DNA of 64,000 nt from an uncultured Mycoplasmatota bacterium (lineage in GTDB: Bacteria > Bacillota_I > Bacilli_A > RF39 > UBA660). The stretch is from positions 3,072-67,071 of the forward strand of contig CANRVY010000003.1 in NCBI GenBank assembly GCA_947643405.1. The letters run 5' to 3'. Shown here one piece after another: positions 7,413 through 18,096 of the stretch (positions are counted from its first letter, which is position 1; every line of letters starts with the position of its first letter). The notes below the pieces were generated by a model. It made no database searches. It saw only the letters and a list, made by a program, of their open reading frames with translations, and was not told the origin of the DNA. A program made the position numbers and the translations under genes.

Positions 7413-7505
7413 TTTTAACCTCCTAACATTTTCTAAGACTCGCCTTTAAGGTACACAATGTGTTTAAAACCTATCTCAGTGCGGTTGTAGAGTGAGGCTC
7501 TACAC
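7413..7505 (-). promoter_or_regulatory. Putative L21-leader-type structured 5' UTR of the rplU-prp-rpmA operon
   Basis: A 100-nt untranslated leader containing GTAGAG...CTCTAC and AACACATTGTGT hairpins immediately upstream of the rplU RBS. Confidence 0.4.
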
Positions 7506-7516
7506 ATTTATAGATT

Positions 7517-8170
7517 TTACCACGCTTTCCCTTTAAAGTCAAACATTTTTTGTAAGTAAGTCTCTTCACTTACAAAGTGACCCTTTTGATAAAATAGATG
7601 TTTGGTATCTCGCTTCATTTTTTTGATATTTCCATCATGAATGACTTTACGTTTAGAAAAAATAAATCGATATAATATTCGTTCCAACAGAAATTTTCTA
7701 AAACAAAAATTCCTAGTTTGAAAAAATTCTACCATGTCCATAAATAAAGTTATCAAAATTAAAAGAAATACCAAAGAAAATCCAAATTGGAACAATAAAA
7801 GCGGAAGCATTAAAATGGATATATAAAATAGAAAATAAAAACTTCGCCAATAAGAGAAAAAATATTGATAAAAGAGCATCACTATTTTAGAACCATCCAA
7901 AGGAATAATTGGGAGTAAATTAAAATAGAGCAAACAATAATGAAATTCTTTAAAATGATTCCAATTTAAACCAGAAAAAAGATGATAAAAAAATAGTTGA
8001 AAAATAGGCCCCGCTAATACAATCATCATTTCTTCTTTGATTGGTTTATTTAAATGTTCTTCAAATAATGTAAGTGCTCCAAATGGATAAAGTTTTACTT
8101 TTTCTATATGCCACTTAAAATAAAGTGCCATCAAAATATGTCCCAGTTCATGGAAAAGTAAAATTGCCAT
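7517..8170 (-). CDS. SpoIVFB-like site-2 protease (peptidase M50), short form without a CBS domain
   Basis: HELGH zinc motif in the first TM helix, several more TM helices, and an LxxxDG-like motif (PLDGSKI). Sits in the spoIVFB position upstream of rplU. Confidence 0.7.
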   Translation of the reverse strand: MAILLFHELGHILMALYFKWHIEKVKLYPFGALTLFEEHLNKPIKEEMMIVLAGPIFQLFFYHLFSGLNWNHFKEFHYCLLYFNLLPIIPLDGSKIVMLFYQYFFSYWRSFYFLFYISILMLPLLLFQFGFSLVFLLILITLFMDMVEFFQTRNFCFRKFLLERILYRFIFSKRKVIHDGNIKKMKRDTKHLFYQKGHFVSEETYLQKMFDFKGKAW

Positions 8171-8249: not shown

Positions 8250-8861
8250 CTACATACATTCTTGATAATTAAGAACCTTACCTTCCTTTTTAAATACTAA
8301 AAATAAATTATTTTTTTCTACTTCACCAAGTAGACTTCCTTCTTCTACATAATCATATAATTTTACATTGATTTCTTTTAATCCACCATACCATAAATCG
8401 GTTCCATTCATTTGTTCCACAATGACTGTTTTTCCATATCCTTCTTTTTCTCCAATAAAAACAACTAGACCACTATTTTTAACAGGAACCAAATAATGCT
8501 CATCCACTGTAAGTTTTACCCCATCTTTATAGGCTTCTTCTTTTTTAAACACAAGTTGTTCTTTAAAGGTTGCTTTTACTGGTTCTTTCAAATATTCAGA
8601 AAAAGGAATCGGACTTCCAAATAATTTTTGATAGACATTATTTACATAAGCAAAAGTAAAATTGGTATCATAAACTTGTTCATAAAAAACTTTTTTAAAG
8701 TCTTTAGACTGTTTTAGACCAATCAGAATCCCTAGCGTTAATAAAATTGTAATAAAAAATTTTATTATAATAACTGTTCCAATATTTTTTGATTCTTTTT
8801 TGGGTTCTAAATTTCTACTACGTTTTAATTTCATTTCTTTTTTTATTTCTTCTGGAGTCAT
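8250..8861 (-). CDS. SpoIVFA-like membrane protein with a degenerate LytM/M23 domain
   Basis: One TM helix, then a C-terminal degenerate M23 fold (GLVVFIGEKEGYGKTVIVEQ...GSLLGEV). AGGTGAT RBS before the ATG at 8861. Positioned directly upstream of the M50 gene, as in B. subtilis spoIVFA-spoIVFB. Confidence 0.6.
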   Translation of the reverse strand: MTPEEIKKEMKLKRSRNLEPKKESKNIGTVIIIKFFITILLTLGILIGLKQSKDFKKVFYEQVYDTNFTFAYVNNVYQKLFGSPIPFSEYLKEPVKATFKEQLVFKKEEAYKDGVKLTVDEHYLVPVKNSGLVVFIGEKEGYGKTVIVEQMNGTDLWYGGLKEINVKLYDYVEEGSLLGEVEKNNLFLVFKKEGKVLNYQECM

Positions 8862-8941
8862 GGTATCACCTAAAAAAGTATATGTTTTTTTGCGCATGAT
8901 TAGAATATCTTTTTTAGAGCATATTAGAAATGGTGATTTCT

Positions 8942-9901
8942 ATGAAAATAAGACTTGGATATGTGGCAATTGCGAAAACAATAGATGACATTAGTTATAA
9001 TCACACCATTACTTATACTCATTACTCAAAACTTCAGGAAGAAGAACAATCAGCAAAATTGAAAAACATTATTCATACAAATTTAGACAATCTATTGGAA
9101 GTTTTAAAATACAATCTTCAAAATAAAATTTTCTTTTTTAGATTCAGTCACAATTTAATTCCTTTAGCTACACATAAAGAAGTCCATTTTGACTACATCA
9201 CACCTTTTTTAGAACAATGGCAAAAAATTGGCAATTTTATCAAGAAACATAACATGAGAATAGATTCTCATCCTGACCAATTCTGCGTATTAAATAGTGT
9301 CAATCAGGATATTGTAGAACAAAGTATCAAAATGTTAAAGTTTCAATACGACATTTATCAAGCAATAGGCATTGAAGGACATGTGGTATTACATATTGGA
9401 AGCAGCACTCTTAATAAGGAAAGTGCAATGAAACGGTTTCATGATACTTATAAAATGCTTCCTAAAGAAATTCAAAAAATGATTCTACTTGAAAACGATG
9501 ATAAAACTTTTACAGCCGAAGAAACTTTAAAATTATGTGAATTACTCCACATTCCTATGGTTTTAGATTATCATCATCATCTTTGCAATCATGAAAAAAA
9601 AGATATAAAACCAATTTTAGAACGTATTTTAAATACATGGAAAGATACATCTTTATCTCCTAAAATGCATTTTTCTTCTCCAAAAAGTCAAAAAGAAAAA
9701 AGAGCACACAATATAATTATTGATGCTCACAAATTCATTTCCTTTTTGAAAATCCTTTCCATTTATAATACCAATGTTGATATTATGTTAGAATGTAAAG
9801 GCAAAGATGAATCTTTATTTCGTTTATCTAGACAGCTTCGTTTTTATACAAAGTATAAATTCATAAATCAATCTACTTTTATCATAAATCCAAAATTATA
9901 A
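8942..9901 (+). CDS. uvdE: UV-damage endonuclease UvdE/UvsE
   Basis: Full-length resemblance to UVDE proteins (RLGYV..., FRFSHNLIPLATH, LENDDKTFTAEETL, HFSSPKS). GGTGAT RBS. Confidence 0.9.
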   Translation: MKIRLGYVAIAKTIDDISYNHTITYTHYSKLQEEEQSAKLKNIIHTNLDNLLEVLKYNLQNKIFFFRFSHNLIPLATHKEVHFDYITPFLEQWQKIGNFIKKHNMRIDSHPDQFCVLNSVNQDIVEQSIKMLKFQYDIYQAIGIEGHVVLHIGSSTLNKESAMKRFHDTYKMLPKEIQKMILLENDDKTFTAEETLKLCELLHIPMVLDYHHHLCNHEKKDIKPILERILNTWKDTSLSPKMHFSSPKSQKEKRAHNIIIDAHKFISFLKILSIYNTNVDIMLECKGKDESLFRLSRQLRFYTKYKFINQSTFIINPKL

Positions 9902-9939
9902 ATTTGCGCATACCGAATAAAATGTGTTATAATGTAATT

Positions 9940-10052
9940 ATGAGAGAACTCTCATAAAAAAACGGAGATACTTAATTATGAAATTAAGTACTGTCCTATC
10001 TTTTTTAATAGAACAAGCACGTTGTTTCAAGGTTGGTGCTTGTTTTTGTTTG
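9940..10052 (+). ncRNA. Candidate antitoxin-like small RNA (about 113 nt), copy 1; alternatively the mRNA of a 29-aa peptide MKLSTVLSFLIEQARCFKVGACFCLTKIP (9978-10067)
   Basis: Extended -10 promoter TGtTATAAT (9925-9933). The transcript would start at a perfect palindrome ATGAGAGAACTCTCAT (9940-9955). An intrinsic terminator AACAAGCAC-15 nt-GTGCTTGTT plus TTTGTTTG lies at 10012-10052, inside the short ORF. Confidence 0.4.
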
Positions 10053-10073
10053 ACCAAAATCCCCTGATAATTT

Positions 10074-10172
10074 TTAGTTATTTGTTAAGACAAATAATAC
10101 TAAAATAAATACTAAGACAACTTCTATAAAATTGATTACAATCAATGTTGATATGACATTATCTTTTCTCAT
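10074..10172 (-). CDS. Type I toxin-like small hydrophobic peptide (32 aa: MRKDNVISTLIVINFIEVVLVFILVLFVLTNN), copy 1
   Basis: AGGAGGGG RBS 12 nt upstream of the ATG. Charged N-terminus followed by a single TM helix. Perfect TTTACA-17-TATAAT promoter. Convergent with the sRNA candidate; the stop codons are 6 bp apart. Confidence 0.5.
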   Translation of the reverse strand: MRKDNVISTLIVINFIEVVLVFILVLFVLTNN

Positions 10173-10228
10173 ATTATCAAGCCCCTCCTAGAAGGACAGC
10201 ACAACGCAATTAAGTACTCCAGTTTATT

Positions 10229-10257
10229 ATTATAACTATTAGAATGTAATATGTAAA
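10229..10257 (-). promoter_or_regulatory. Sigma-A promoter of the toxin-like ORF (copy 1)
   Basis: On the minus strand, TTTACA (10252-10257), a 17-nt spacer, then TATAAT (10229-10234). Confidence 0.6.
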
Positions 10258-10444
10258 TATATTTTCATAAACTTTCAAACATTGTATTTTTGACTGATAA
10301 AAACCTATAAAATTATTCAATCATGAAATAGATTCCCTATTTTTCATTGTGTTTTATAACAGAATCTCTATTTCTAAATTCATTATTTTACATTTATTAA
10401 AAAGTCAGTTGTACAATAAACTAGATATATGTTATAATGTAACT

Positions 10445-10557
10445 ATGAGAGAACTCTCATAAAAAAACGGAGATACTTAATTATGAAATTAAGTACTGTC
10501 CTATCTTTTTTAATAGAACAAGCACGTTGTTTCAAGGTTGGTGCTTGTTTTTGTTTG
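10445..10557 (+). ncRNA. Candidate antitoxin-like small RNA, copy 2 (alternative 29-aa ORF at 10483-10572)
   Basis: Same promoter, 5' palindrome and internal terminator as copy 1, shifted by +505 bp. Confidence 0.4.
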
Positions 10558-10578
10558 ACCAAAATCCCCTGATAATTT

Positions 10579-10677
10579 TTAGTTATTTGTTAAGACAAAT
10601 AATACTAAAATAAATACTAAGACAACTTCTATAAAATTGATTACAATCAATGTTGATATGACATTATCTTTTCTCAT
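10579..10677 (-). CDS. Type I toxin-like small hydrophobic peptide (32 aa), copy 2
   Basis: Identical to 10074-10172 and carries its own promoter copy at 10734-10762. Confidence 0.5.
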   Translation of the reverse strand: MRKDNVISTLIVINFIEVVLVFILVLFVLTNN

Positions 10678-10733
10678 ATTATCAAGCCCCTCCTAGAAGG
10701 ACAGCACAACGCAATTAAGTACTCCAGTTTATT

Positions 10734-10762: not shown

Positions 10763-10807
10763 TATATTTTCATAAACTTTCAAACATTGTATTTTTGATA
10801 CAAAAAA

Positions 10808-10840
10808 AGCGCTAATAATCCATTTTTATTAGCACTTTTT
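10808..10840. terminator. Bidirectional terminator between the repeat locus and the convergent DHHW gene
   Basis: GCGCTAAT...ATTAGCAC stem flanked by an A-run and a T-run. Confidence 0.6.
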
Positions 10841-10864
10841 TCTTTTTTATAAATATAATTTTCT

Positions 10865-11944
10865 TTAATCTTTTAACATAACGCTTTGATTAATCACCAT
10901 GGTACTATAAAGAAATAAAACATCTTGGTCTTCAAATGTAATGACTTCATTTAATTTAGAAGCTCCCATATATCGTAAATCAATGAGCGTAATTTTAGAA
11001 TAACTCTCTATTAATAATGGCGTTAAACTACTAGCAAAGGAATCCCTAAATATCACCAGTTCTCTTCCACTTTTATTTTTTTCATTTTGAATTGTTATAA
11101 AAGGTGTCGAACCAGATAAAAATACATTATAAGAATCCATTTTCCCAAGTTCTTTTAGATTATATACTTCATGGAAAGATAAATTTGTTTTATTTTCTAC
11201 AAAGGCTTGACTAATTACTTCATTTGTCAAATATGTTAATGTTTCTCCTTTTCCTCCAATTGCTGCTTGTCCATAGTAAACTCCATAAAAAGGTTTATAC
11301 TCTTGAAATTCATATTGATGATTAGAAACATTCCCAATCATTGTTTCTTCTAATCTACGTGCTACTGGAATAATTTTCTCTTGTTTCCAATGTGTATCTG
11401 TATCATAATAATGTTCTAAAGAAAGTAAGTCGCGCACTTCTATATAAGAAAGTTCTTTCATATTTTCTCTTACCAGTTTATATAAGTTCTCATAATCCAT
11501 TTTAAGATGCTCATCTTCTACATAATAATTTTTATCTGGAATTACCATATAATAAACATTCATTCCTTGCAAATATTTATCATAAATCTGATTTACTTTC
11601 TTTGTAAAAAGTTTTACATTTGTCTCTTTTAATGGATATTCTATTTTAAATATCTTATTATTTTTTATATAAATTCCATTATTGTCTAACTTTTGAAACA
11701 TAGAATATTCTACATTTGCTTTTAAACTTCGGAAGGTATTCCGAAATGGAAATTGGTCTAACGTATATGTTTCTAATTCTTTGAATGCACTTCCATCTAA
11801 TACAGTAGAAATCGTTATCTCTGGAAACTGTTTTAGATGCCTGCGTTCTTCAAACGATAGTTCTTCATCCTTCATGATAAAATTGAAAAGAAAGAATCCA
11901 TAAATGATACTTAAAAATAAAACAATTGTTACTTTTTCTTTCAT
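10865..11944 (-). CDS. DHHW-family protein (DltD/AlgJ-like SGNH acyl-transfer partner of the MBOAT)
   Basis: N-terminal TM anchor. DTHW motif (HYYDTDTHW). Directly downstream of the MBOAT gene. Confidence 0.7.
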   Translation of the reverse strand: MKEKVTIVLFLSIIYGFFLFNFIMKDEELSFEERRHLKQFPEITISTVLDGSAFKELETYTLDQFPFRNTFRSLKANVEYSMFQKLDNNGIYIKNNKIFKIEYPLKETNVKLFTKKVNQIYDKYLQGMNVYYMVIPDKNYYVEDEHLKMDYENLYKLVRENMKELSYIEVRDLLSLEHYYDTDTHWKQEKIIPVARRLEETMIGNVSNHQYEFQEYKPFYGVYYGQAAIGGKGETLTYLTNEVISQAFVENKTNLSFHEVYNLKELGKMDSYNVFLSGSTPFITIQNEKNKSGRELVIFRDSFASSLTPLLIESYSKITLIDLRYMGASKLNEVITFEDQDVLFLYSTMVINQSVMLKD

Positions 11945-11952
11945 ATTTTCAC

Positions 11953-13344
11953 CTAAAATCTAAAATACAAAAATGGATTAAAAGAACTATCTATTAAAAA
12001 GGCAGTCACAATCAGTAAAAGTGCAACATAATAAAATGGTTCTATTCCATTTAAGAATAGATTCAATCCTTTCCTTTGTTTTAATTTATGAAACATATTG
12101 GTTAATATCGGAGTAGAAGCAATGAGTGCAATTACTAGAATTACAATATAACTTCTTATATAATAACCAGTTTCTTCTGTTAAAAGTGGCAAGCCTCCTA
12201 ATCCAAACATGTTTTTAAAAAATGATATCCCATCATTGATTGAATTTACATTAAAAATAACAAAACTAATAAGTATGAAAAATACAGTATAGAAATGACC
12301 AAATATTCTATGTTTTTCTAAAAACTTTCCATATATTTTCTTTTCTAAAACCAAAAGTATCGCAAAATAAATTCCCCATATGATAAAATTCCAAGCTGCT
12401 CCATGCCAGAACCCAGTTAAAAACCACACTACAAGAATATTTCGAATCCACTTTCCATTCGAAACACGATTTCCACCTAATGGAATATAAACATAATCAC
12501 GAAACCAGCTAGATAAAGAAATATGCCAACGTCTCCAAAAATCGGTTACTGATTTGGCTATCAAAGGATAGTTAAAATTTTCTAAGAAATGAAATCCAAA
12601 CATATTTCCTAATCCAATTGCCATATCACTATATCCAGAAAAATCAAAATAAATTTGTAAAGTATAAGAAAGTGCAATGACCCAAAAGCCAACCATACTA
12701 GCTTCATTTGCTTCTAGTAAAATAACACTAAGTTCTCCTATCACATTGGCTAATAATACTTTTTTTGCTAAACCAATTACAAATCTTCGAATACCTCTTT
12801 CAAAATTAGTCATGGTATGTTTTCTAGATTGTAATTCCTCTGCTACATCTTTATATCGAACAATTGGACCTGCTACTAGTTGTGGAAACAAGCATACATA
12901 GGTCGCAAAATCCAAAAAATTTTTATTTGCTTTCACAGTTCCTCTATAAACATCAACTACATAGCTTAATGTTTGAAATGTAAAAAAGCTAATTCCTATT
13001 GGCATTACTACTTTTAATAAACCAAATTCGGTTTGAAATATTGTATTCGTATTGTCAATAAAAAAATCTACATATTTAAAATACCCCAATAATCCTAAGT
13101 TCATAGCTACAGTTATAACTAGAATAACTTTCTTATGATTGCTTTTTTCTACTACAATTCCTAATAGATAATTCATAAAACAAGAAAGTAATAAAACCCA
13201 TATATGTAACTGTTCTCCATAAAAGTAAAAGAATAAACTAGAAATGAGTAATACTATATTTTTCCACTTATTTGGAACTATAAAATAACAAAATAATAAA
13301 AGTGGTAAAAAGTAATATAAAAATAAAATACTTGAAAATAACAT
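11953..13344 (-). CDS. MBOAT-family membrane O-acyltransferase (DltB/AlgI/PatA-like)
   Basis: Multi-TM protein with the conserved MBOAT His region (WRRWHISLSSWFRDYVYIPLGGNR). Confidence 0.9.
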   Translation of the reverse strand: MLFSSILFLYYFLPLLLFCYFIVPNKWKNIVLLISSLFFYFYGEQLHIWVLLLSCFMNYLLGIVVEKSNHKKVILVITVAMNLGLLGYFKYVDFFIDNTNTIFQTEFGLLKVVMPIGISFFTFQTLSYVVDVYRGTVKANKNFLDFATYVCLFPQLVAGPIVRYKDVAEELQSRKHTMTNFERGIRRFVIGLAKKVLLANVIGELSVILLEANEASMVGFWVIALSYTLQIYFDFSGYSDMAIGLGNMFGFHFLENFNYPLIAKSVTDFWRRWHISLSSWFRDYVYIPLGGNRVSNGKWIRNILVVWFLTGFWHGAAWNFIIWGIYFAILLVLEKKIYGKFLEKHRIFGHFYTVFFILISFVIFNVNSINDGISFFKNMFGLGGLPLLTEETGYYIRSYIVILVIALIASTPILTNMFHKLKQRKGLNLFLNGIEPFYYVALLLIVTAFLIDSSFNPFLYFRF

Positions 13345-13383
13345 AAGATACCCCTTTCAAGAAAAGCCTTCTTTTTAGAAGGC

Positions 13384-13872
13384 TTATTTTCCTAGTTCTT
13401 TAAAACTTTCACTTAATTTTTTTGCATAGTCATTATTCATAATTAACACAATGACATCACCAATGTTATCTACAATCACATTTTCATCTTCTACCCCAAC
13501 GCAAATCCATTTTCTTGGGTCTACTTTTTCTTTAATATCTTTTTTCGCTTGTTCTATATCAGCACCTTTATTCATACGAACTAATACAATTGAATGTGCT
13601 GTTGAACCAACCATAGATTCAGATGCCAAAGCTTCTTTATAGTCTAATTCTTTTACCCCTAAATAATAAGATAAATTTTCTTCAGTAACTTCTTTATCTT
13701 CTAAAAACATAAAGTCTTCTTCTTCGTTAATACCAGCACCTTTATATAATTTTCTCATTAATTCTGGTAAGGTTCCTTCTAAATTCTTTTCTTTTTTCTC
13801 TCCACATCCAGTAATAGATAACATCATAACAAATGCCATCATTACTACTACAATTTTAGATAATTTTTTCAT
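13384..13872 (-). CDS. Lipoprotein, DUF4358-like
   Basis: Signal peptide with lipobox (LSITGC). 162 aa. Confidence 0.55.
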   Translation of the reverse strand: MKKLSKIVVVMMAFVMMLSITGCGEKKEKNLEGTLPELMRKLYKGAGINEEEDFMFLEDKEVTEENLSYYLGVKELDYKEALASESMVGSTAHSIVLVRMNKGADIEQAKKDIKEKVDPRKWICVGVEDENVIVDNIGDVIVLIMNNDYAKKLSESFKELGK

Positions 13873-13897
13873 ATTTTCCTCCCAATATTTTATCTTT

Positions 13898-14323
13898 CTA
13901 TTTTTGATACAAGAAGTAAGAGTTTCCTTTTTTTACAATAATCGTATCTTTTTCTTCCCCTTGATAAATGATTACTTTTGTATTGTTATCATATACTGTA
14001 TCTAAATATTTTCCCCCTGCTTTATTCTTCAAAACCCCTATTTCTTTATAACAGATATTCTGATAACAAAACTCATTTGACTCTTCCATTGCAGTTCTTG
14101 GTCCTATAGAAGTCGGATTAATTCCCACATCTTTTTTTTCAAAGCCATTTACAATTAAGAAACAGAAAACAAAACAAAGCGATACCATTCCTACCTTCCA
14201 AACATAATTGATAGAATATTTTGTTTTTGGTTTTCTAGAAAGGATATTTTCTAACATCTTATCTTTTTTATTCTTACTAGGCTCCACCTTATTTAAAGCT
14301 TGAATAAACATTTTATTCTTCAT
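13898..14323 (-). CDS. Putative anti-sigma factor (single-pass membrane protein)
   Basis: Overlaps the 3' end of the ECF sigma gene by 11 bp. Cytoplasmic N-terminus, one TM helix, and a small extracytoplasmic domain. Confidence 0.5.
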   Translation of the reverse strand: MKNKMFIQALNKVEPSKNKKDKMLENILSRKPKTKYSINYVWKVGMVSLCFVFCFLIVNGFEKKDVGINPTSIGPRTAMEESNEFCYQNICYKEIGVLKNKAGGKYLDTVYDNNTKVIIYQGEEKDTIIVKKGNSYFLYQK

Positions 14324-14801
14324 ATTTTTCCCCCTCTAAGAGTTCACGCAAGTAACTTCTCCCCCTATGTAGATAAGACCTTACAGTTGCTTCTTTCATA
14401 TGTAGAATATTTGCTATCTCACTAGTATGATATCCCTCATAATAATAACAATACAAAACAGTTTTATATTTTTTAGGAAGGCTTAGTAAGGTTTCTAAGG
14501 TTTCATCTTTCTTTTCATGAGTAGCAATATCAAATTCACCTACTGTGACTTTTTGTTTCCACCACTGTTTAACATTGTTTTTGCACATATTACTAGCAGT
14601 TACAATCAGCCATGCTTTTCTATGATTTTCATCTTTAAATAGAGGCCACGTAGTAAATAATTTTAGAAAAACATTTTGAACTACATCTTCTGTATCAGAA
14701 TGATTCTTAAAATATAGAAAGCAAATTCGGTAAACCATATCTACATATTTTTGGTAAATTAAAATAAACTCTTCTTCTCTTTGTACCAAAGAGGCATGCA
14801 T
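14313..14801 (-). CDS. ECF-subfamily RNA polymerase sigma-70 factor
   Basis: Sigma-70 region 2 (YICFLYFKNHSDTEDVVQNVFLKLF) and region 4 HTH (YYYEGYHTSEIANILHMKEATVRSYLHRGR). Confidence 0.85.
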   Translation of the reverse strand: MHASLVQREEEFILIYQKYVDMVYRICFLYFKNHSDTEDVVQNVFLKLFTTWPLFKDENHRKAWLIVTASNMCKNNVKQWWKQKVTVGEFDIATHEKKDETLETLLSLPKKYKTVLYCYYYEGYHTSEIANILHMKEATVRSYLHRGRSYLRELLEGEKYEE

Positions 14802-14866
14802 ACATTCACTCCTCTCACATATAAAACAATTGAATATTCAAAAATGTTGCACGAAAAAGAAAAAAA

Positions 14867-15880
14867 TTATTCATTTTTTTCATCTAATACACTTTCATAA
14901 ATTTCAATGAGTTTTTTTCCTATTAATTTTAAATCTCTTTCTTTTGCTACTTCGTATCCTGCTTCTACCAAAGATGGCAGTTTTCCTTCTAATATTCCTC
15001 TTATTTTTTCTTCAAATTCATCAATATCTTTTGCTTTATAAACATTTTTTCCATCTTCTAACCATTCAGAAAATACAGGAATATCCCTGATTAAAGATGG
15101 AATCTTAGCTGCACAAGCTTCAATGATAGGAATACCTTCTGTTTCTTCTAAAGTTGGAAATAGATACAAATCAGCTCCAGATAAAGCATCTCTTATCATC
15201 GTAGATTCTACATATCCTGCAAAGTGCAAATTCGGTAATTGTGTATTGACTGCTTTTCTAATTTTTAATGGACTTGCTGATAAAGGACTATATCCAAACC
15301 AAATAAATTTATATTCAGGAAGTCGTTTGGCTAATTCTACAAAGTCCAAGATTCCTTTTCGCTCTATGTAAAGACCAATACCAACAATTACTTTTTCATG
15401 TTCTTGGTATCCATAAAATTCTCTAAAAGCTTGTCCTTTTTTATTATCATGTTCAAAAAAACTTACATCAATTCCATTCGATAACGCAACAATTGGAGCG
15501 TCTATGGTTCCATAACTTTCTAACAAGCGTTTAGAATAAGGAGTTGGAGTAATAATTTTATCTCCTAAATTATAACATTTGGTAATCCACCATTTAAAAA
15601 TAGGTGCCATTTGATTTGAAAAAAGAAATGAATTTTTAAAATCTTCTTCTGTTGAATGTGCATGATAAACCACTTTTTTCCCAGCATCTTTTGCTTTTTT
15701 GGCAAGCGCAAAAGAGTTCGGACCATAAAAATTAATATGTACAATATCATAAGTATCATTTGAATCTGTTGTATGGTCAATATGGTTTTCTTCTAACGCT
15801 TTTAATTGATGCTTAATTGCTTTTCCTAGTCCAGATTTTTCTATTTGCTTTAACCCCTCTGTATAAAGTAATACTTTCAT
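14867..15880 (-). CDS. GT4-family glycosyltransferase
   Basis: C-terminal EX7E-type motif (ETEGIPIIEACAAKIPSL). AAGGGAGG RBS before the ATG at 15880. Confidence 0.8.
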   Translation of the reverse strand: MKVLLYTEGLKQIEKSGLGKAIKHQLKALEENHIDHTTDSNDTYDIVHINFYGPNSFALAKKAKDAGKKVVYHAHSTEEDFKNSFLFSNQMAPIFKWWITKCYNLGDKIITPTPYSKRLLESYGTIDAPIVALSNGIDVSFFEHDNKKGQAFREFYGYQEHEKVIVGIGLYIERKGILDFVELAKRLPEYKFIWFGYSPLSASPLKIRKAVNTQLPNLHFAGYVESTMIRDALSGADLYLFPTLEETEGIPIIEACAAKIPSLIRDIPVFSEWLEDGKNVYKAKDIDEFEEKIRGILEGKLPSLVEAGYEVAKERDLKLIGKKLIEIYESVLDEKNE

Positions 15881-15940
15881 AGAGACCTCCCTTTTATCTA
15901 AATATAAGGATAACATAAACTTGTTATCGTTGCAAGAAAC

Positions 15941-16984
15941 TTATCGATTCCTTACTTCTTCTTTTAAAAGTTCTAATTGCTTTTTAAATGCGGATGGCAA
16001 AGCATACTGTTTTAACAAAGTAGTTACTGAAATCCAATCATTCTTATCTTCTGCTTCTTCTATATATACAATATAATTGGTCATTTGCCATATTTTATGA
16101 GTAAAAATATGTTTTGATGATTCCATCTCTAAAATTCTTAAAACTGTATATCCTTTTTCTTTTAAATATTTTAAAGCTTCTTCTACATTTAATTTTTGAT
16201 TGACATTTGGAAATTCATATAAAGATGCAAGTAAACCTTTGCTTGGTCTTTTATGAATGGCCACTTTGTTATAGTTTAACAAAATGAACACAGTATATTC
16301 TTCCATTACTTTTTCTTTTTTAGAATCTTTTATAGGCAATTCTAACATAGTTCCTTCTTGAAAGGCTTTACACATTTCTTTCAAAGGACAAATATTACAA
16401 TGTGGTTCTCCATTTGGAACACAGACTGTTGCCCCTAATTCCATCAAAGCTTGATTAAAAATTCCTGAATTTTCTGGCATACTTTCAGATAATTCTTGAA
16501 ACAATTCTTTTTTTGTAGACAACTTACTAATATTTCTTTTGGAATTTTGAATTCTCATGATAACTCTAAAAACATTACCATCAATTGCTGGTACTTTTTC
16601 ACAAAATGCAATAGAAGCAATTGCTCCTGCTGTATATTCTCCTATTCCAGGTAATTGAATGATTTCTTCATAAGTATTTGGCATTTTTCCTTGGTATTCA
16701 TCAATAATCTTAACGGCTGCTTTTTTTAAATTTTTAGCTCTTGTATAATATCCTAAACCTTCCCAAAGCTTTAATAATCTTTCTTCTTCTACATTTGCTA
16801 AAGCATCTATATTTGGAAGTTCTTTCATAAATCGCTCATAATAAACTTTCACTGCTTCTACTCTAGTTTGCTGAAGCATAATTTCTGATATCCAAATATG
16901 ATAAGGCAAAGTATCTTTCCTCCATGGCAAATCTCTTTTGCTTATTTGATACCAGTCACATAATGGTTTTACGATTCTTCGCAT
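15941..16984 (-). CDS. mutY: A/G-specific adenine DNA glycosylase MutY
   Basis: HhH-GPD motif (LPGIGEYTAGAIASIAF), an Fe-S cluster with 4 Cys (CVPNGEPHCNICPLKEMC) and a NUDIX-like C-terminus. Confidence 0.9.
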   Translation of the reverse strand: MRRIVKPLCDWYQISKRDLPWRKDTLPYHIWISEIMLQQTRVEAVKVYYERFMKELPNIDALANVEEERLLKLWEGLGYYTRAKNLKKAAVKIIDEYQGKMPNTYEEIIQLPGIGEYTAGAIASIAFCEKVPAIDGNVFRVIMRIQNSKRNISKLSTKKELFQELSESMPENSGIFNQALMELGATVCVPNGEPHCNICPLKEMCKAFQEGTMLELPIKDSKKEKVMEEYTVFILLNYNKVAIHKRPSKGLLASLYEFPNVNQKLNVEEALKYLKEKGYTVLRILEMESSKHIFTHKIWQMTNYIVYIEEAEDKNDWISVTTLLKQYALPSAFKKQLELLKEEVRNR

Positions 16985-18096
16985 TCTTCTACCTCGATGG
17001 TGCTGCTATTTTTAGTCGCACTCATTTTTTCATACCAAAATAATTTCTTAGTAAATAAGGTAATTAAAAAGTGGAAAAACATAATACATGAAAAAAATAA
17101 AAATCCTGATACAAATATCCAAAATATCATTCTAGCTTTACCTGATAAATGACTGAATAATGAAGTTAGAAAAATAAAGTAATATGGAGCTGGTAATAAA
17201 AACAAATACAAAATTCCATATCGAATAAAATACTGATACCAACACGGAACTTCATCATTTATGGTTACTATTTTAATATTCATCCATTTTTTTCCATAGG
17301 TATATCCATTTCGTATGATTGGTACGATCATAAAAATAACAATAATAGAAAAGAGATACTGCAAGAATAAATTATCTACCCCTAACATTGCAAACAAAAC
17401 TGTCACCAAACTTACTAAAAATAAGTCTATCCAAACTGCCATACCTCTTCTAAAAACGGAAATTCTTTTTCCTTTCATATAAGAAAGGGCATCTAATTTC
17501 TCTCGTTTTGGCAAAAAATGGCTAAAAATTGGTGTTACTCCATAACCAATTATACCTCCTAAGGTATTTAAAAATAAGTCATCAACATCAAATAATCGAT
17601 AAGGTCTAGGATAAATACCATATAGTCCTGATAACTGTGTGAGTTCAAAAAAAAGCGTTAATAAAAAGGTAAAGAAAAATGTTTTCTTAAAAGAACAATT
17701 AAAATAGTATCTTAAATAAATTCCAAATGGAAGTGTTAATAAAATATTATAGAAAGCTTGATAGAAATAAGGCTCTTTTATAACTTCTAAATAGGTACTA
17801 GGATCATTCCATATAAAACTGCTCTGAAGTATAAAATCTCTAATAAAAGCGAATGGTACTAACTGAACCCATTCTGTTGTCATATTTTCTACAACTTCTA
17901 TAGAAGGAAGTGGCAAAATAACTAAAAAATAAATACAAGTTAAATATAAAATAAAGGAATATACAATAGCTACTCTAAGAAATAAAACAGATCCATACTT
18001 ATGATATTGATGAAAAATATAAGGAAGTGTAAAAAGAAATGCAATTAATGGAAATGTAAGCAACGCAAATCGTATGGGTTCTATATAAGCTGACAT
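16969..18096 (-). CDS. VanZ-like/RDD-domain fusion membrane protein
   Basis: VanZ motif (DVDDLFLNTLGGIIGY), then an RDD-like segment (RRGMAVWIDLFLVSL). Confidence 0.6.
   Translation of the reverse strand: MSAYIEPIRFALLTFPLIAFLFTLPYIFHQYHKYGSVLFLRVAIVYSFILYLTCIYFLVILPLPSIEVVENMTTEWVQLVPFAFIRDFILQSSFIWNDPSTYLEVIKEPYFYQAFYNILLTLPFGIYLRYYFNCSFKKTFFFTFLLTLFFELTQLSGLYGIYPRPYRLFDVDDLFLNTLGGIIGYGVTPIFSHFLPKREKLDALSYMKGKRISVFRRGMAVWIDLFLVSLVTVLFAMLGVDNLFLQYLFSIIVIFMIVPIIRNGYTYGKKWMNIKIVTINDEVPCWYQYFIRYGILYLFLLPAPYYFIFLTSLFSHLSGKARMIFWIFVSGFLFFSCIMFFHFLITLFTKKLFWYEKMSATKNSSTIEVEECEES

What the first reader, a model, noticed from the sequence alone, without database searches (positions are those of the whole stretch)
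10865..14801. ECF sigma/anti-sigma pair in one operon with a DUF4358 lipoprotein and an MBOAT-DHHW acyltransferase pair
Five same-strand genes run sigma (ECF), overlapping membrane anti-sigma, lipoprotein (DUF4358-like), MBOAT (DltB/AlgI/PatA-like) and DHHW (DltD/AlgJ-like). The MBOAT-DHHW pair transfers acyl or alanyl groups onto extracytoplasmic polymers such as peptidoglycan, teichoic acid or polysaccharide. Direct linkage to an ECF sigma/anti-sigma pair mirrors the SigV-RsiV control of oatA/dlt in B. subtilis. It suggests an envelope-stress-inducible surface-acylation module, possibly for lysozyme or cationic-peptide resistance. The substrate is not predictable from the sequence.
Basis: inference. 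Interest (0 to 1): 0.55.

Follow-up and report, generated by a model that had tools for sequence, protein, structure and literature searches.

The report
Sigma-controlled cell-surface acetylation operon
In an uncultured gut Bacilli bacterium, a stress-type sigma factor and its presumed membrane anti-sigma factor sit in one operon with a lipoprotein, a membrane acyltransferase and a surface acetyltransferase that most likely add acetyl groups to a cell-wall polymer; the parts are known kinds, but this combination has not been described.

Summary
Five tightly packed minus-strand genes (10865-14801) encode an ECF sigma factor, an overlapping single-pass membrane protein, a DUF4358-like lipoprotein, an MBOAT and a DHHW/PatB1-like SGNH protein.

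The operon has a phylogenetically conserved ECF-type promoter (TGCAAC-N17-TGTTTTAT, 14851-14821). A terminator lies at 10802-10842.

The chemistry can be narrowed to O-acetylation rather than D-alanylation. The MBOAT ends in the fused FXYXXF acyl-shuttle motif (FLYFRF, in 80/80 relatives). It scores below the DltB cutoff, and no dltA/C/X genes are present. The DHHW protein keeps the Asp-His-Ser triad and the D-x-R block.

The real conserved unit is a triad, lipoprotein-MBOAT-DHHW. The lipoprotein gene lies directly upstream of the MBOAT in 63/68 species loci. An ECF sigma/anti-sigma pair is attached in only 11/64 loci, but this is far more than chance, and two different sigma types are involved.

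The sigma factor is not SigV and the anti-sigma is not RsiV, so the B. subtilis comparison is a functional analogy only.

A conserved hairpin plus U-tract between the lipoprotein and MBOAT genes probably attenuates read-through.

The substrate and the inducing signal remain unknown.

Verdict: a new variant of a known kind, of moderate interest.

The parts
14852..14866 (-). T-rich tract (TTTTTTTCTTTTTCG) between the stop codon of the upstream glycosyltransferase gene and the -35 element; possibly UP-element-like
   Evidence: Sequence read. Comparable A/T tracts precede the -35 element in 11 related sigma loci. Its function is inferred.
14821..14851 (-). ECF-type promoter: -35 TGCAAC (14851-14846), 17-nt spacer, -10 TGTTTTAT (14828-14821)
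   Evidence: TGCAAC-N14-AATTGT is exactly conserved in the window, L087, L088, L089, L007 and L008 while the spacer bases vary. It is the only exact match in the 64-kb window. The wider sigma family has (C/G)(A/G)AC-N17-(C/T)GTAT upstream of its sigma genes in 22/71 loci, against a 1.06% background (p 3e-26).
14313..14801 (-). ECF (group 4) sigma-70 factor, 162 aa
   Evidence: Pfam Sigma70_r2 and r4_2 hits; TIGR02937 scores 78 bits, above its cutoff. The best PDB hits are ECF SigW/SigH/SigE. It is below every equivalog cutoff, including SigV.
13898..14323 (-). Presumed anti-sigma factor, 141 aa: about 39 cytoplasmic residues with two short helices, one transmembrane helix (about residues 40-61), a linker, and an extracytoplasmic beta domain of about 60 aa
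   Evidence: It overlaps sigma by 11 nt and has one hydrophobic segment. The AF2 model has pLDDT 78-88 for residues 84-140 and low confidence elsewhere. No Pfam, NCBIfam, PDB or fold match was found. The family has only 28 cluster representatives among 1.84 billion proteins. A single-pass protein occupies the same position after sigma in all sigma-linked loci examined.
13384..13872 (-). DUF4358-like lipoprotein, 162 aa (lipobox ITG-C23)
   Evidence: Pfam DUF4358 scores 26.1 bits against a cutoff of 25. C23 is nearly invariant; E85, S94, R99, K110, P119, K121, W122 and C124 are invariant. The AF2 model has pLDDT 88 with no significant PDB fold match. The gene lies directly upstream of the MBOAT in 63/68 loci. 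The variant family A4 is homologous, with hhalign probability 98.3%. In the reverse check, 4/4 lipoprotein homologues sit directly upstream of an MBOAT gene and a following gene, called DHHW by Pfam in 3 of the 4.
13364..13385 (-). Hairpin AAGCCTTCT-aaaa-AGAAGGCTT followed by TTTCTT, lying between the lipoprotein stop codon and the MBOAT ribosome-binding site; a probable leaky terminator or attenuator
   Evidence: Found by the terminator scan and by folding. An equivalent hairpin plus U-tract with different stem sequences is present in 16/54 loci, mostly the Bacilli-MAG clade. L017 has a 12-bp all-GC terminator at this position.
11953..13344 (-). MBOAT acyltransferase of PatA/AlgI type, 463 aa, with the conserved MBOAT His314 (WHG) and the C-terminal acyl-shuttle motif FLYFRF (Tyr460)
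   Evidence: Pfam MBOAT scores 100 bits. It matches DltB structures at E 1e-31 over the core only. The NCBIfam DltB score of 176 is below the 375 cutoff. F-x-Y-x-x-F is at the extreme C-terminus in 80/80 homologues. The motif's role is taken from PMC12148441.
10865..11944 (-). DHHW-family SGNH O-acetyltransferase (PatB1-like), 359 aa, with an N-terminal membrane anchor
   Evidence: Pfam DHHW scores 54 bits. PDB matches are 5v8d (B. cereus PatB1) at E 3e-10 and 4nzk at E 4e-9. D183-x-H185, S302 and D322-x-R324-Y325 are invariant in 25 sequences. There is a hydrophobic segment at residues 5-23.
10802..10842 (-). Intrinsic terminator after DHHW (GUGCUAAUAA ... UUAUUAGCGC stem followed by a run of seven U)
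   Evidence: Sequence read; RNAfold gives -17.1 kcal/mol.

Best explanation
This is an autoregulated ECF sigma / anti-sigma operon. Its output is a three-protein, extracytoplasmic O-acetylation machine for a cell-envelope glycopolymer.

Proposed sequence of events:
1. At rest, the single-pass membrane protein holds the sigma factor at the membrane. This is inferred from position, translational coupling and topology.
2. An unidentified envelope signal inactivates that protein, probably through its small extracytoplasmic beta domain and probably by regulated proteolysis. Both points rest on analogy with SigV/SigW.
3. The freed sigma factor directs RNA polymerase to TGCAAC-N17-TGTTTTAT at 14851-14821. 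The motif is shown by conservation; its use by this sigma is inferred.
4. Transcription runs through the sigma, anti-sigma and lipoprotein genes. It is partly stopped at the hairpin at 13364-13385, and the read-through fraction expresses the MBOAT and DHHW genes before terminating at 10802-10842.
5. The MBOAT takes acetyl from cytoplasmic acetyl-CoA. Using His314, it loads Tyr460 of its own C-terminal FLYFRF peptide on the outer face.
6. The membrane-anchored DHHW enzyme picks the acetyl up on Ser302 (triad Asp183/His185) and transfers it to a sugar hydroxyl of peptidoglycan or a wall-linked polysaccharide.
7. The DUF4358 lipoprotein is a constant third partner. It probably presents the acceptor or stabilises the complex. 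This last point is speculation.
For: Operon structure:
- The gaps between the genes are -11, 25, 39 and 8 nt.
- The scan found no sigma-70-like promoter in the short gaps or inside the lipoprotein gene.
- A terminator follows DHHW.

Promoter:
- TGCAAC-N14-AATTGT is exactly conserved 28-35 nt upstream of the ribosome-binding site in six loci whose DHHW proteins are only 50-86% identical.
- It is unique in the window.
- It fits the consensus seen upstream of 22/71 sigma homologues, against a 1% background.

Linkage:
- 11/64 species loci carry an ECF sigma in the upstream slot, and 11 of the 13 sigma-like ORFs in 1.02 Mb lie there.
- Two sigma types, A and B, are involved.
- Five of 48 sigma-less cassettes carry GAAC-N16-17-CGTCTA directly upstream, against 1.5% background (p 7e-4).
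- L008 and L013 share tRNA-Glu/tRNA-Leu flanks, one with and one without the sigma module.

Chemistry:
- FLYFRF sits at the C-terminus in 80/80 MBOATs.
- The published mechanism for MBOAT-SGNH pairs applies (PMC12148441).
- The DHHW catalytic residues are invariant, and the protein is homologous to the secondary-cell-wall-polysaccharide O-acetyltransferase PatB1.

Triad: the lipoprotein is adjacent in 63/68 loci and in 4/4 reverse look-ups.

Precedent: B. subtilis SigV transcribes oatA (PMC4183432).
Against: - There are no expression data.
- A conserved hairpin plus U-tract lies between the lipoprotein and MBOAT genes. L017 has a strong terminator and a 164-nt gap at that position. The sigma factor may therefore mainly drive itself, the anti-sigma and the lipoprotein.
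- Most cassettes (53/64) have no linked sigma factor, and many sit behind sigma-70-like promoter matches.
- The sigma family is generic. Only 1 of 40 of its closest metagenomic homologues with enough downstream sequence is followed by the cassette.
- The anti-sigma role has no homology support.
- No terminator separates the upstream glycosyltransferase gene from sigma, so read-through from upstream is possible.
- The acceptor polymer is unknown.
Confidence: 0.7

Rival explanations
1. The sigma factor controls only itself, the anti-sigma and the lipoprotein. The hairpin at 13364-13385 is an efficient terminator, and the MBOAT and DHHW genes are expressed independently, for example from a promoter inside the lipoprotein gene. 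On this view the lipoprotein belongs as much to the signalling module as to the enzyme.
For: The hairpin plus U-tract is conserved by structure, with compensatory stem changes, in 16/54 loci. L017 has a 12-bp GC terminator and a 164-nt gap there.
Against: - The hairpin stem has only 9 bp with 4 G-C pairs, and its U-tract is interrupted (TTTCTT).
- Only about 20 nt, carrying the ribosome-binding site, separate the hairpin from the MBOAT start codon.
- The scan found no promoter-like site in the lipoprotein gene.
- The same hairpin occurs in sigma-less cassettes (L010, L013), where the lipoprotein and the enzymes must share one promoter.
- The lipoprotein travels with MBOAT-DHHW in 63/68 loci whether or not sigma is present.
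Confidence: 0.15
2. The module is a Dlt-like D-alanylation system for teichoic acids: the MBOAT acts as DltB and the DHHW protein as DltD.
For: The best NCBIfam and PDB hits of the MBOAT are to DltB.
Against: - The DltB score of 176 bits is far below the 375-bit cutoff.
- The PDB match covers only the MBOAT core, residues 111-334.
- The protein carries the extra C-terminal helices and the fused FXYXXF motif that DltB lacks and that mark acetyl-CoA-using MBOATs.
- No DltA, DltC or DltX gene lies in the operon or within 10 kb.
- The partner enzyme is DHHW/PatB1-like, not DltD.
Confidence: 0.03
3. The cassette acetylates a secreted exopolysaccharide (cellulose-, alginate- or Pel-like), as proposed for C. 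difficile CcsH/CcsI. It is therefore a biofilm-matrix function rather than a wall-protection function.
For: MBOAT/DHHW pairs have been proposed to acetylate clostridial cellulose (PMC7710045). AlgI/J/F/X and WssH/I are similar systems.
Against: - No polysaccharide synthase, GT2/PilZ protein or glycoside hydrolase lies within 10 kb in the window clade.
- The flanks of more than 60 related cassettes are heterogeneous housekeeping genes. This argues for a polymer that every host already makes.
Confidence: 0.1
4. The sigma/anti-sigma pair and the cassette are chance neighbours in this lineage, with no regulatory link.
For: The sigma family is generic: only 1/40 close homologues have the cassette. 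Most cassettes lack a linked sigma factor.
Against: - 11 of the 13 sigma-like ORFs in 1.02 Mb lie in the one upstream slot.
- Two sigma types were recruited.
- The arrangement is kept from 86% down to about 50% protein identity.
- There is no promoter space between the anti-sigma and lipoprotein genes (25 nt).
Confidence: 0.02

Closest known systems
B. subtilis sigV-rsiV-oatA(-yrhK) operon (lysozyme-induced peptidoglycan O-acetylation)
   Same: An ECF sigma factor and a single-pass anti-sigma factor are encoded with, and drive, an extracytoplasmic envelope O-acetyltransferase (PMC4183432). The regulatory logic is the same.
   Different: - OatA is an AT3-SGNH fusion, not an MBOAT plus DHHW plus lipoprotein.
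- The sigma factor here scores 58 bits against the 190-bit SigV cutoff.
- The anti-sigma here is 141 aa and has no RsiV-type lysozyme-binding domain or any known domain.
- The inducer is unknown.
[quoted passage not shown]
   Same: The two enzyme families are the same. PatB1 is the closest solved structure (E 3e-10), and the catalytic Ser, Asp-x-His and D-x-R residues are conserved.
   Different: - The relationship is distant; the alignment shows low identity.
- No ECF control or DUF4358 partner is mentioned for PatA1/PatB1 in the papers read.
- The Block V motif is DTHW here rather than DHHW.
- The acceptor here is unknown.
Gram-negative PatA-PatB peptidoglycan O-acetylation (mechanistic paradigm for MBOAT-SGNH pairs)
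   Same: The MBOAT has the conserved His and a C-terminal FXYXXF Tyr shuttle that hands acetyl to an SGNH serine (PMC12148441). The motif is present here as FLYFRF.
   Different: - The SGNH partner there is of the PatB/DUF459 type, not DHHW.
- No lipoprotein partner is described.
- No sigma linkage is described.
DltABCD(X) D-alanylation of teichoic acids
   Same: It also uses an MBOAT plus SGNH-type transferase and an acyl-Tyr shuttle.
   Different: The shuttle there is on the separate microprotein DltX, and the donor is DltC-D-Ala made by DltA. None of these genes is present here, and the DltB cutoff is not met.
Alginate AlgI-AlgJ-AlgF-AlgX and clostridial CcsH-CcsI
   Same: These are MBOAT plus SGNH-like O-acetylation systems. 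AlgF shows that an extra extracytoplasmic protein of unclear role can be part of such machines (own knowledge for AlgF; for Ccs).
   Different: Those systems are embedded in polysaccharide-synthesis operons, whereas this cassette stands alone. DUF4358 shows no detected similarity to any solved structure.

Membership tests
ECF (group 4) sigma-70 factors | Only the sigma-2 and sigma-4 domains, small size, and a score above the ECF superfamily cutoff | tested here: met
   The protein is 162 aa with Pfam r2 (residues 15-79) and r4_2 (residues 101-149) hits. TIGR02937 scores 78.4 bits against a cutoff of 42.9. PDB hits are all ECF sigma factors.
SigV (lysozyme-responsive ECF sigma) | Score above the NCBIfam SigV equivalog cutoff | tested here: not met
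   NF053879 scores 58.5 bits against a cutoff of 190.
RsiV-type anti-sigma factor | DUF4179-type N-terminal region plus a C-terminal lysozyme-binding domain | tested here: not met
   No Pfam or NCBIfam family was found at E <= 0.01. The profile found no PDB sequence at E <= 10. The protein has only 141 aa.
Anti-sigma factor (generic) | Encoded next to and co-translated with the sigma gene; a cytoplasmic sigma-binding N-terminus; a membrane span | tested here: inconclusive
   There is an 11-nt overlap with sigma, one transmembrane segment and two predicted N-terminal helices at low confidence. A single-pass protein occupies this position in all sigma-linked loci examined. No homology to a known anti-sigma domain was found, and binding was not testable.
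ECF autoregulated operon | A cognate ECF-type promoter (AAC-like -35, CGT/TGT-like -10) directly upstream of the sigma gene | tested here: met
   TGCAAC-N17-TGTTTTAT lies at 14851-14821. It is conserved in six loci and unique in the window. The sigma family consensus is enriched at p 3e-26. Use of the promoter by this sigma factor is not testable here.
MBOAT (bacterial, PatA/AlgI type) | Pfam MBOAT hit, the invariant catalytic His, and the C-terminal FXYXXF acyl-shuttle motif | tested here: met
   Pfam scores 100 bits. W-H314-G aligns with the DltB WHG. FLYFRF is at residues 458-463 and is present in 80/80 relatives. The motif definition comes from PMC12148441.
DltB | Score above the TIGR04091 cutoff; no fused shuttle motif; dltA/dltC/dltD/dltX neighbours | tested here: not met
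   The score is 175.9 bits against a cutoff of 375. A fused FXYXXF motif is present. No dlt genes lie in the neighbourhood.
DHHW family (PatB1-like SGNH O-acetyltransferase) | Pfam DHHW hit; nucleophilic Ser; Block II D-x-R-Y; Block V D-H-H-W with catalytic Asp and His | tested here: met
   Pfam scores 54.3 bits against a cutoff of 25. S302, D322-L-R324-Y325 and D183-T-H185-W are invariant and align with PatB1. The middle His of the DHHW motif is Thr in this clade. The features are as described in PMC9487903.
DUF4358 | Score above the Pfam gathering cutoff | tested here: met
   The score is 26.1 bits against a cutoff of 25, so marginal. Several homologues carry a precomputed PF14270 hit, and NCBI names a 99%-identical protein as DUF4358.
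Bacterial lipoprotein | Signal peptide followed by a lipobox ending in Cys | tested here: met
   Hydrophobic residues 4-22 are followed by I-T-G-C23. The Cys is at least 90% conserved in 35 sequences. Lipidation itself is not testable.
Peptidoglycan O-acetylation system | Acetyl transfer to MurNAc O6 | not testable with these tools
   The acceptor cannot be read from the sequence. Only the stand-alone, widely distributed context hints at a ubiquitous polymer.

The most novel reading that the evidence does not exclude
The DUF4358 lipoprotein is an obligatory, so far unrecognised third subunit of Gram-positive MBOAT-DHHW O-acetyltransferases, which are currently described as 'pairs'. It would bind or present the acceptor polymer, or gate the acetyl-Tyr shuttle. 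In about one lineage in six, the whole machine has been placed under a private ECF sigma/anti-sigma switch. The 60-residue extracytoplasmic beta domain of that anti-sigma would be a new kind of sensor of wall damage or wall acetylation state.
Probability: 0.3. Interest if true: 0.6.

Novelty: new variant of a known kind. Interest (0 to 1): 0.4.

Why it matters
MBOAT-SGNH systems decorate bacterial surfaces and affect lysozyme resistance, autolysis, S-layer anchoring and phage or immune recognition. For Gram-positive bacteria, only the Bacillus cereus-group PatA1/PatB1 pair has been studied.

This locus belongs to a large, uncharacterised clade in gut Firmicutes: 6842 DHHW homologues reached E <= 1e-5 among the 8000 scored. 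Members include Roseburia, Faecalibacterium, Agathobacter, Lachnospiraceae, Oscillospiraceae and uncultured Bacilli.

Three testable points come out of the analysis:
1. A conserved third protein (DUF4358) is missing from the current two-protein model.
2. In a minority of lineages the machine is wired to an ECF stress switch with an identifiable promoter. That gives a handle for finding the inducing signal.
3. A built-in attenuator probably sets the ratio of lipoprotein to enzymes.

None of this overturns current understanding. It extends a known theme, stress-induced wall O-acetylation, to a different enzyme system.

Tried and rejected
- D-alanylation reading: rejected (DltB cutoff not met, fused FXYXXF motif, no dlt genes).
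- SigV/RsiV membership: rejected.
- Fold assignment for the lipoprotein: the AF2 model is confident (pLDDT 88), but Foldseek against the PDB gave nothing below E 0.05. The best hit had probability 0.85 and TM-score 0.40, to T. pallidum TP0453. A weak Pfam SUKH-1 hit (21 bits, below cutoff) was not supported.
- Fold assignment for the anti-sigma: only the C-terminal beta domain is confident, and no match was found.
- Glycolipid/lipoteichoic-acid substrate idea from the adjacent IagA/BgsA glycosyltransferase (484 bits against a cutoff of 460): not supported. That neighbour is kept only in the window's immediate clade. L007 and L008 have ABC-2 transporters and a tRNA there instead.
- 'Dedicated sigma family' idea: rejected. 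Only 1/40 close sigma homologues carry the cassette.
- Other regulon promoters in the window: none at the strict motif. The loose motif is uninformative in this AT-rich DNA.
- Rfam scan: no RNA family in the operon.
- Literature: no paper links ECF sigma factors with MBOAT/DHHW, and only one paper mentions DUF4358, as a bile-responsive Turicibacter protein.
- Whether B. cereus patA1-patB1 has a DUF4358 neighbour could not be checked.

Full report
**1. Observation**

The five ORFs exist exactly as described, all on the minus strand:
- sigma, 14801-14313
- a 141-aa ORF, 14323-13898, overlapping sigma by 11 nt
- a 162-aa ORF, 13872-13384
- a 463-aa ORF, 13344-11953
- a 359-aa ORF, 11944-10865

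The gaps after the overlap are 25, 39 and 8 nt.

Pfam and NCBIfam confirm most of the family calls:
- The sigma is an ECF sigma. Sigma70_r2 and r4_2 both hit, and TIGR02937 scores 78 bits against a cutoff of 42.9.
- The MBOAT scores 100 bits.
- The DHHW protein scores 54 bits.
- The DUF4358 call is marginal, at 26.1 bits against a cutoff of 25.
- The 141-aa protein matches no family.

The best solved relatives are ECF SigW/SigH/SigE for sigma, DltB for the MBOAT core and B. cereus PatB1 (5v8d, E 3e-10) for the DHHW protein.

The same five genes in the same order occur on 19 metagenomic contigs carrying the identical DHHW protein. They also occur in relatives at 86% and 64% DHHW identity. The source is an uncultured, low-GC (about 28%) Bacilli bacterium.

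**2. What the enzymes are**

The MBOAT is not DltB.
- It scores 176 bits against a cutoff of 375 for the DltB equivalog.
- Its PDB match covers only the core, residues 111-334.
- It ends in FLYFRF. This is the FXYXXF acyl-shuttle hexapeptide. In PatA it is auto-acetylated on Tyr from acetyl-CoA and then donates acetyl to the SGNH partner. DltB lacks the motif and uses the separate microprotein DltX together with DltA and DltC (PMC12148441).
- All 80 MBOAT homologues collected here end in F-L-Y-F-R/G-F.
- No dlt genes are nearby.

The DHHW protein keeps its catalytic residues. Asp183-x-His185, Ser302 and Asp322-x-Arg324-Tyr325 are invariant across 25 sequences down to 46% identity. They align with the catalytic residues of PatB1. 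The protein has an N-terminal membrane anchor.

The chemistry is therefore O-acetylation by the route acetyl-CoA, then MBOAT His314, then Tyr460, then DHHW Ser302, then a polymer hydroxyl. This route follows from conserved residues plus a published mechanism. It was not demonstrated here.

**3. The conserved unit is a triad**

A genome scan anchored on the DHHW protein returned 80 species loci. In 63 of the 68 loci with enough upstream sequence, a DUF4358-like lipoprotein gene lies directly upstream of the MBOAT.

A second lipoprotein type occupies that position in 11 loci. It is homologous to the first, with hhalign probability 98.3% and E 2e-14.

I also checked the association from the lipoprotein side. 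Four of four lipoprotein homologues sit directly upstream of an MBOAT gene and a following gene, which Pfam calls DHHW in three of the four.

The lipoprotein has these features:
- a lipobox (ITG-C23)
- invariant E85, S94, R99, K110, P119, K121, W122 and C124
- a confident AF2 model, pLDDT 88
- no significant PDB fold match and no PDB sequence match

Its role is unknown. The papers read here describe these systems as MBOAT-SGNH or MBOAT/DHHW 'pairs', and none of them mentions a DUF4358 partner.

The flanks of the triad are otherwise heterogeneous housekeeping genes. No polysaccharide synthase is linked. This weakly favours a polymer that every host makes, such as peptidoglycan or a wall polysaccharide.

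**4. The sigma linkage**

An ECF sigma gene lies within 2.2 kb upstream on the same strand in 11 of 64 loci. Only 13 sigma-like ORFs occur in the whole 1.02 Mb of loci, so the enrichment in that slot is about 30-fold.

Two sigma types are involved:
- Type A: the window, L007, L008, L017, L062, L069 and L081
- Type B: L054, L067, L084 and L085

In every sigma-linked locus examined, the sigma gene is followed by a single-pass membrane protein with a short N-terminus and a variable outer domain.

L008 and L013 share the same tRNA-Glu and tRNA-Leu flanks, one with and one without the sigma/anti-sigma module. The module therefore behaves as an add-on.

Five of 48 sigma-less cassettes carry GAAC-N16-17-CGTCTA directly upstream of the lipoprotein gene, against 1.5% of background windows (p 7e-4). 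ECF control may thus extend beyond physical linkage. Many of the other cassettes have sigma-70-like matches instead.

The sigma family itself is generic. Among the 80 closest homologues in metagenome contigs, only 1 of the 40 with at least 3 kb of downstream sequence carries the cassette.

**5. Promoter and transcript architecture**

TGCAAC-N17-TGTTTTAT lies at 14851-14821, directly after a T-rich tract. A ribosome-binding site (GAGAGGAG) and the ATG at 14801 follow it.

- The core TGCAAC-N14-AATTGT is identical in six loci whose spacer bases differ.
- It is the only exact match in the window.
- Other type-A loci have TGTGAC-N17-CGT(G/T)T. Among type-B loci, L085 and L054 have TGCAAC-N17-GTGTAT and L084 has TGTAAC-N17-TGTCTT.
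- Across the wider sigma family, (C/G/T)(A/G)AC-N17-(C/T)GT(A/T/G)T is found upstream of 22 of 71 sigma genes, against 1.06% of background windows (p 3e-26).

No terminator separates the upstream IagA/BgsA-type glycosyltransferase gene from sigma. Basal read-through from upstream is therefore possible.

A strong terminator follows the DHHW gene at 10802-10842.

Between the lipoprotein stop codon and the MBOAT ribosome-binding site there is a 9-bp hairpin followed by TTTCTT, at 13364-13385. Equivalent hairpins with different stem sequences occur in 16 of 54 loci, mostly in the Bacilli-MAG clade and also in sigma-less cassettes. L017 has a 12-bp all-GC terminator at this position. I read the hairpin as a leaky terminator that sets a higher lipoprotein-to-enzyme ratio. 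It is the main caveat to simple co-transcription.

**6. The anti-sigma**

The assignment rests on translational coupling, topology and positional conservation.
- The family is tiny, with 6 close clusters and 28 representatives among 1.84 billion proteins.
- AF2 gives two short N-terminal helices at low confidence, a transmembrane helix, a disordered linker and a six-stranded beta domain at residues 84-140 with pLDDT 78-88.
- There is no structural match and no PDB sequence match.
- It is not RsiV-like, and the signal it senses is unknown.

**7. Comparison and verdict**

The regulatory logic matches B. subtilis sigV-rsiV-oatA, in which SigV transcribes oatA. However, the sigma factor is below the SigV cutoff (58 bits against 190). 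The anti-sigma is unrelated to RsiV, and the enzyme system is an MBOAT plus DHHW plus lipoprotein rather than an AT3-SGNH fusion.

The enzymes are distant members of the PatA1/PatB1 kind. For that pair, the papers read here describe neither ECF control nor a DUF4358 partner.

I therefore class the locus as a new variant of a known kind. It is real, coherent and of moderate interest.

Most useful outcomes:
- the recognition of the triad
- the defined ECF promoter
- the exclusion of D-alanylation

Main unknowns:
- the acceptor polymer
- the inducing signal
- the role of the lipoprotein

Noticed in passing
window 9922-10726 (between the DHHW stop codon at 10865 and uvdE at 9901): There is a tandem duplication with a 505-nt period (300 nt at 99% identity). 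Each copy has a near-consensus promoter (TTTACA-17-TATAAT), a 32-aa hydrophobic ORF (MRKDNVISTLIVINFIEVVLVFILVLFVLTNN) and hairpin terminators. It looks like a duplicated type I toxin-like small membrane peptide locus. No NCBIfam hit was found. Judging by gap length, relative L087 has room for about one copy and L089 for none.
   Followed up: partly
window 14867-15916 (-): The gene immediately upstream of the sigma promoter passes the NCBIfam equivalog cutoff for the IagA/BgsA glycosyltransferase, which makes the lipoteichoic acid glycolipid anchor (484 bits against a cutoff of 460). This neighbour is kept only in the window's immediate clade, so it gives no reliable clue to the substrate.
   Followed up: yes
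window 16969-18096 (-) and 15941-16984 (-): A VanZ-RDD fusion protein gene overlaps the start of a MutY-like gene by 16 nt. Together with the glycosyltransferase gene they form a same-strand run that leads into the sigma operon without a terminator.
   Followed up: no
window 7426-7496 (-), 7517-8170 (-), 8250-8897 (-): A ribosomal L21 leader RNA is present (Rfam, 45 bits). It is preceded by genes for an M50 and an M23 peptidase. From memory, this order recalls spoIVFA-spoIVFB-rplU-ysxB-rpmA of Bacillus. NCBIfam gave no equivalog.
   Followed up: partly
L008 5012-5088 and 9138-9222; L013 5975-6051 and 9128-9212; L007 5026-5102: In related Bacilli MAGs the cassette sits between tRNA-Glu(CTC) and tRNA-Leu(CAG). 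L008 has sigma and anti-sigma inserted between the tRNA and the lipoprotein gene, whereas L013 does not. This is a natural with/without pair.
   Followed up: partly
L016, L023, L034, L044, L047 (45-80 nt upstream of the lipoprotein gene): These sigma-less cassettes carry a canonical ECF-type GAAC/CAAC-N16-17-CGTCTA motif directly upstream. That is 5/48 against a 1.5% background (p 7e-4). It suggests control by an unlinked ECF sigma factor.
   Followed up: partly
L110, L111, L119, L120, L123-L125, L133-L135, L146, L156, L162 (upstream of sigma homologues): Many metagenomic homologues of this sigma factor are preceded by coding sequence that appears to end in a Gly/His/Cys-rich tail (my reading of the DNA printed, not formally translated). 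This looks like a different operon type for the same sigma family.
   Followed up: no
L007 3333-4892 (-): A collagen-repeat protein with a BclA C-terminal domain (exosporium-like) lies next to the sigma operon in a related Bacilli MAG.
   Followed up: no
L056 10054-10545; L073 9125-9748: Extra DUF4358-like lipoprotein paralogues lie downstream of the DHHW gene in some loci. L056 has no lipoprotein gene upstream of its MBOAT.
   Followed up: no
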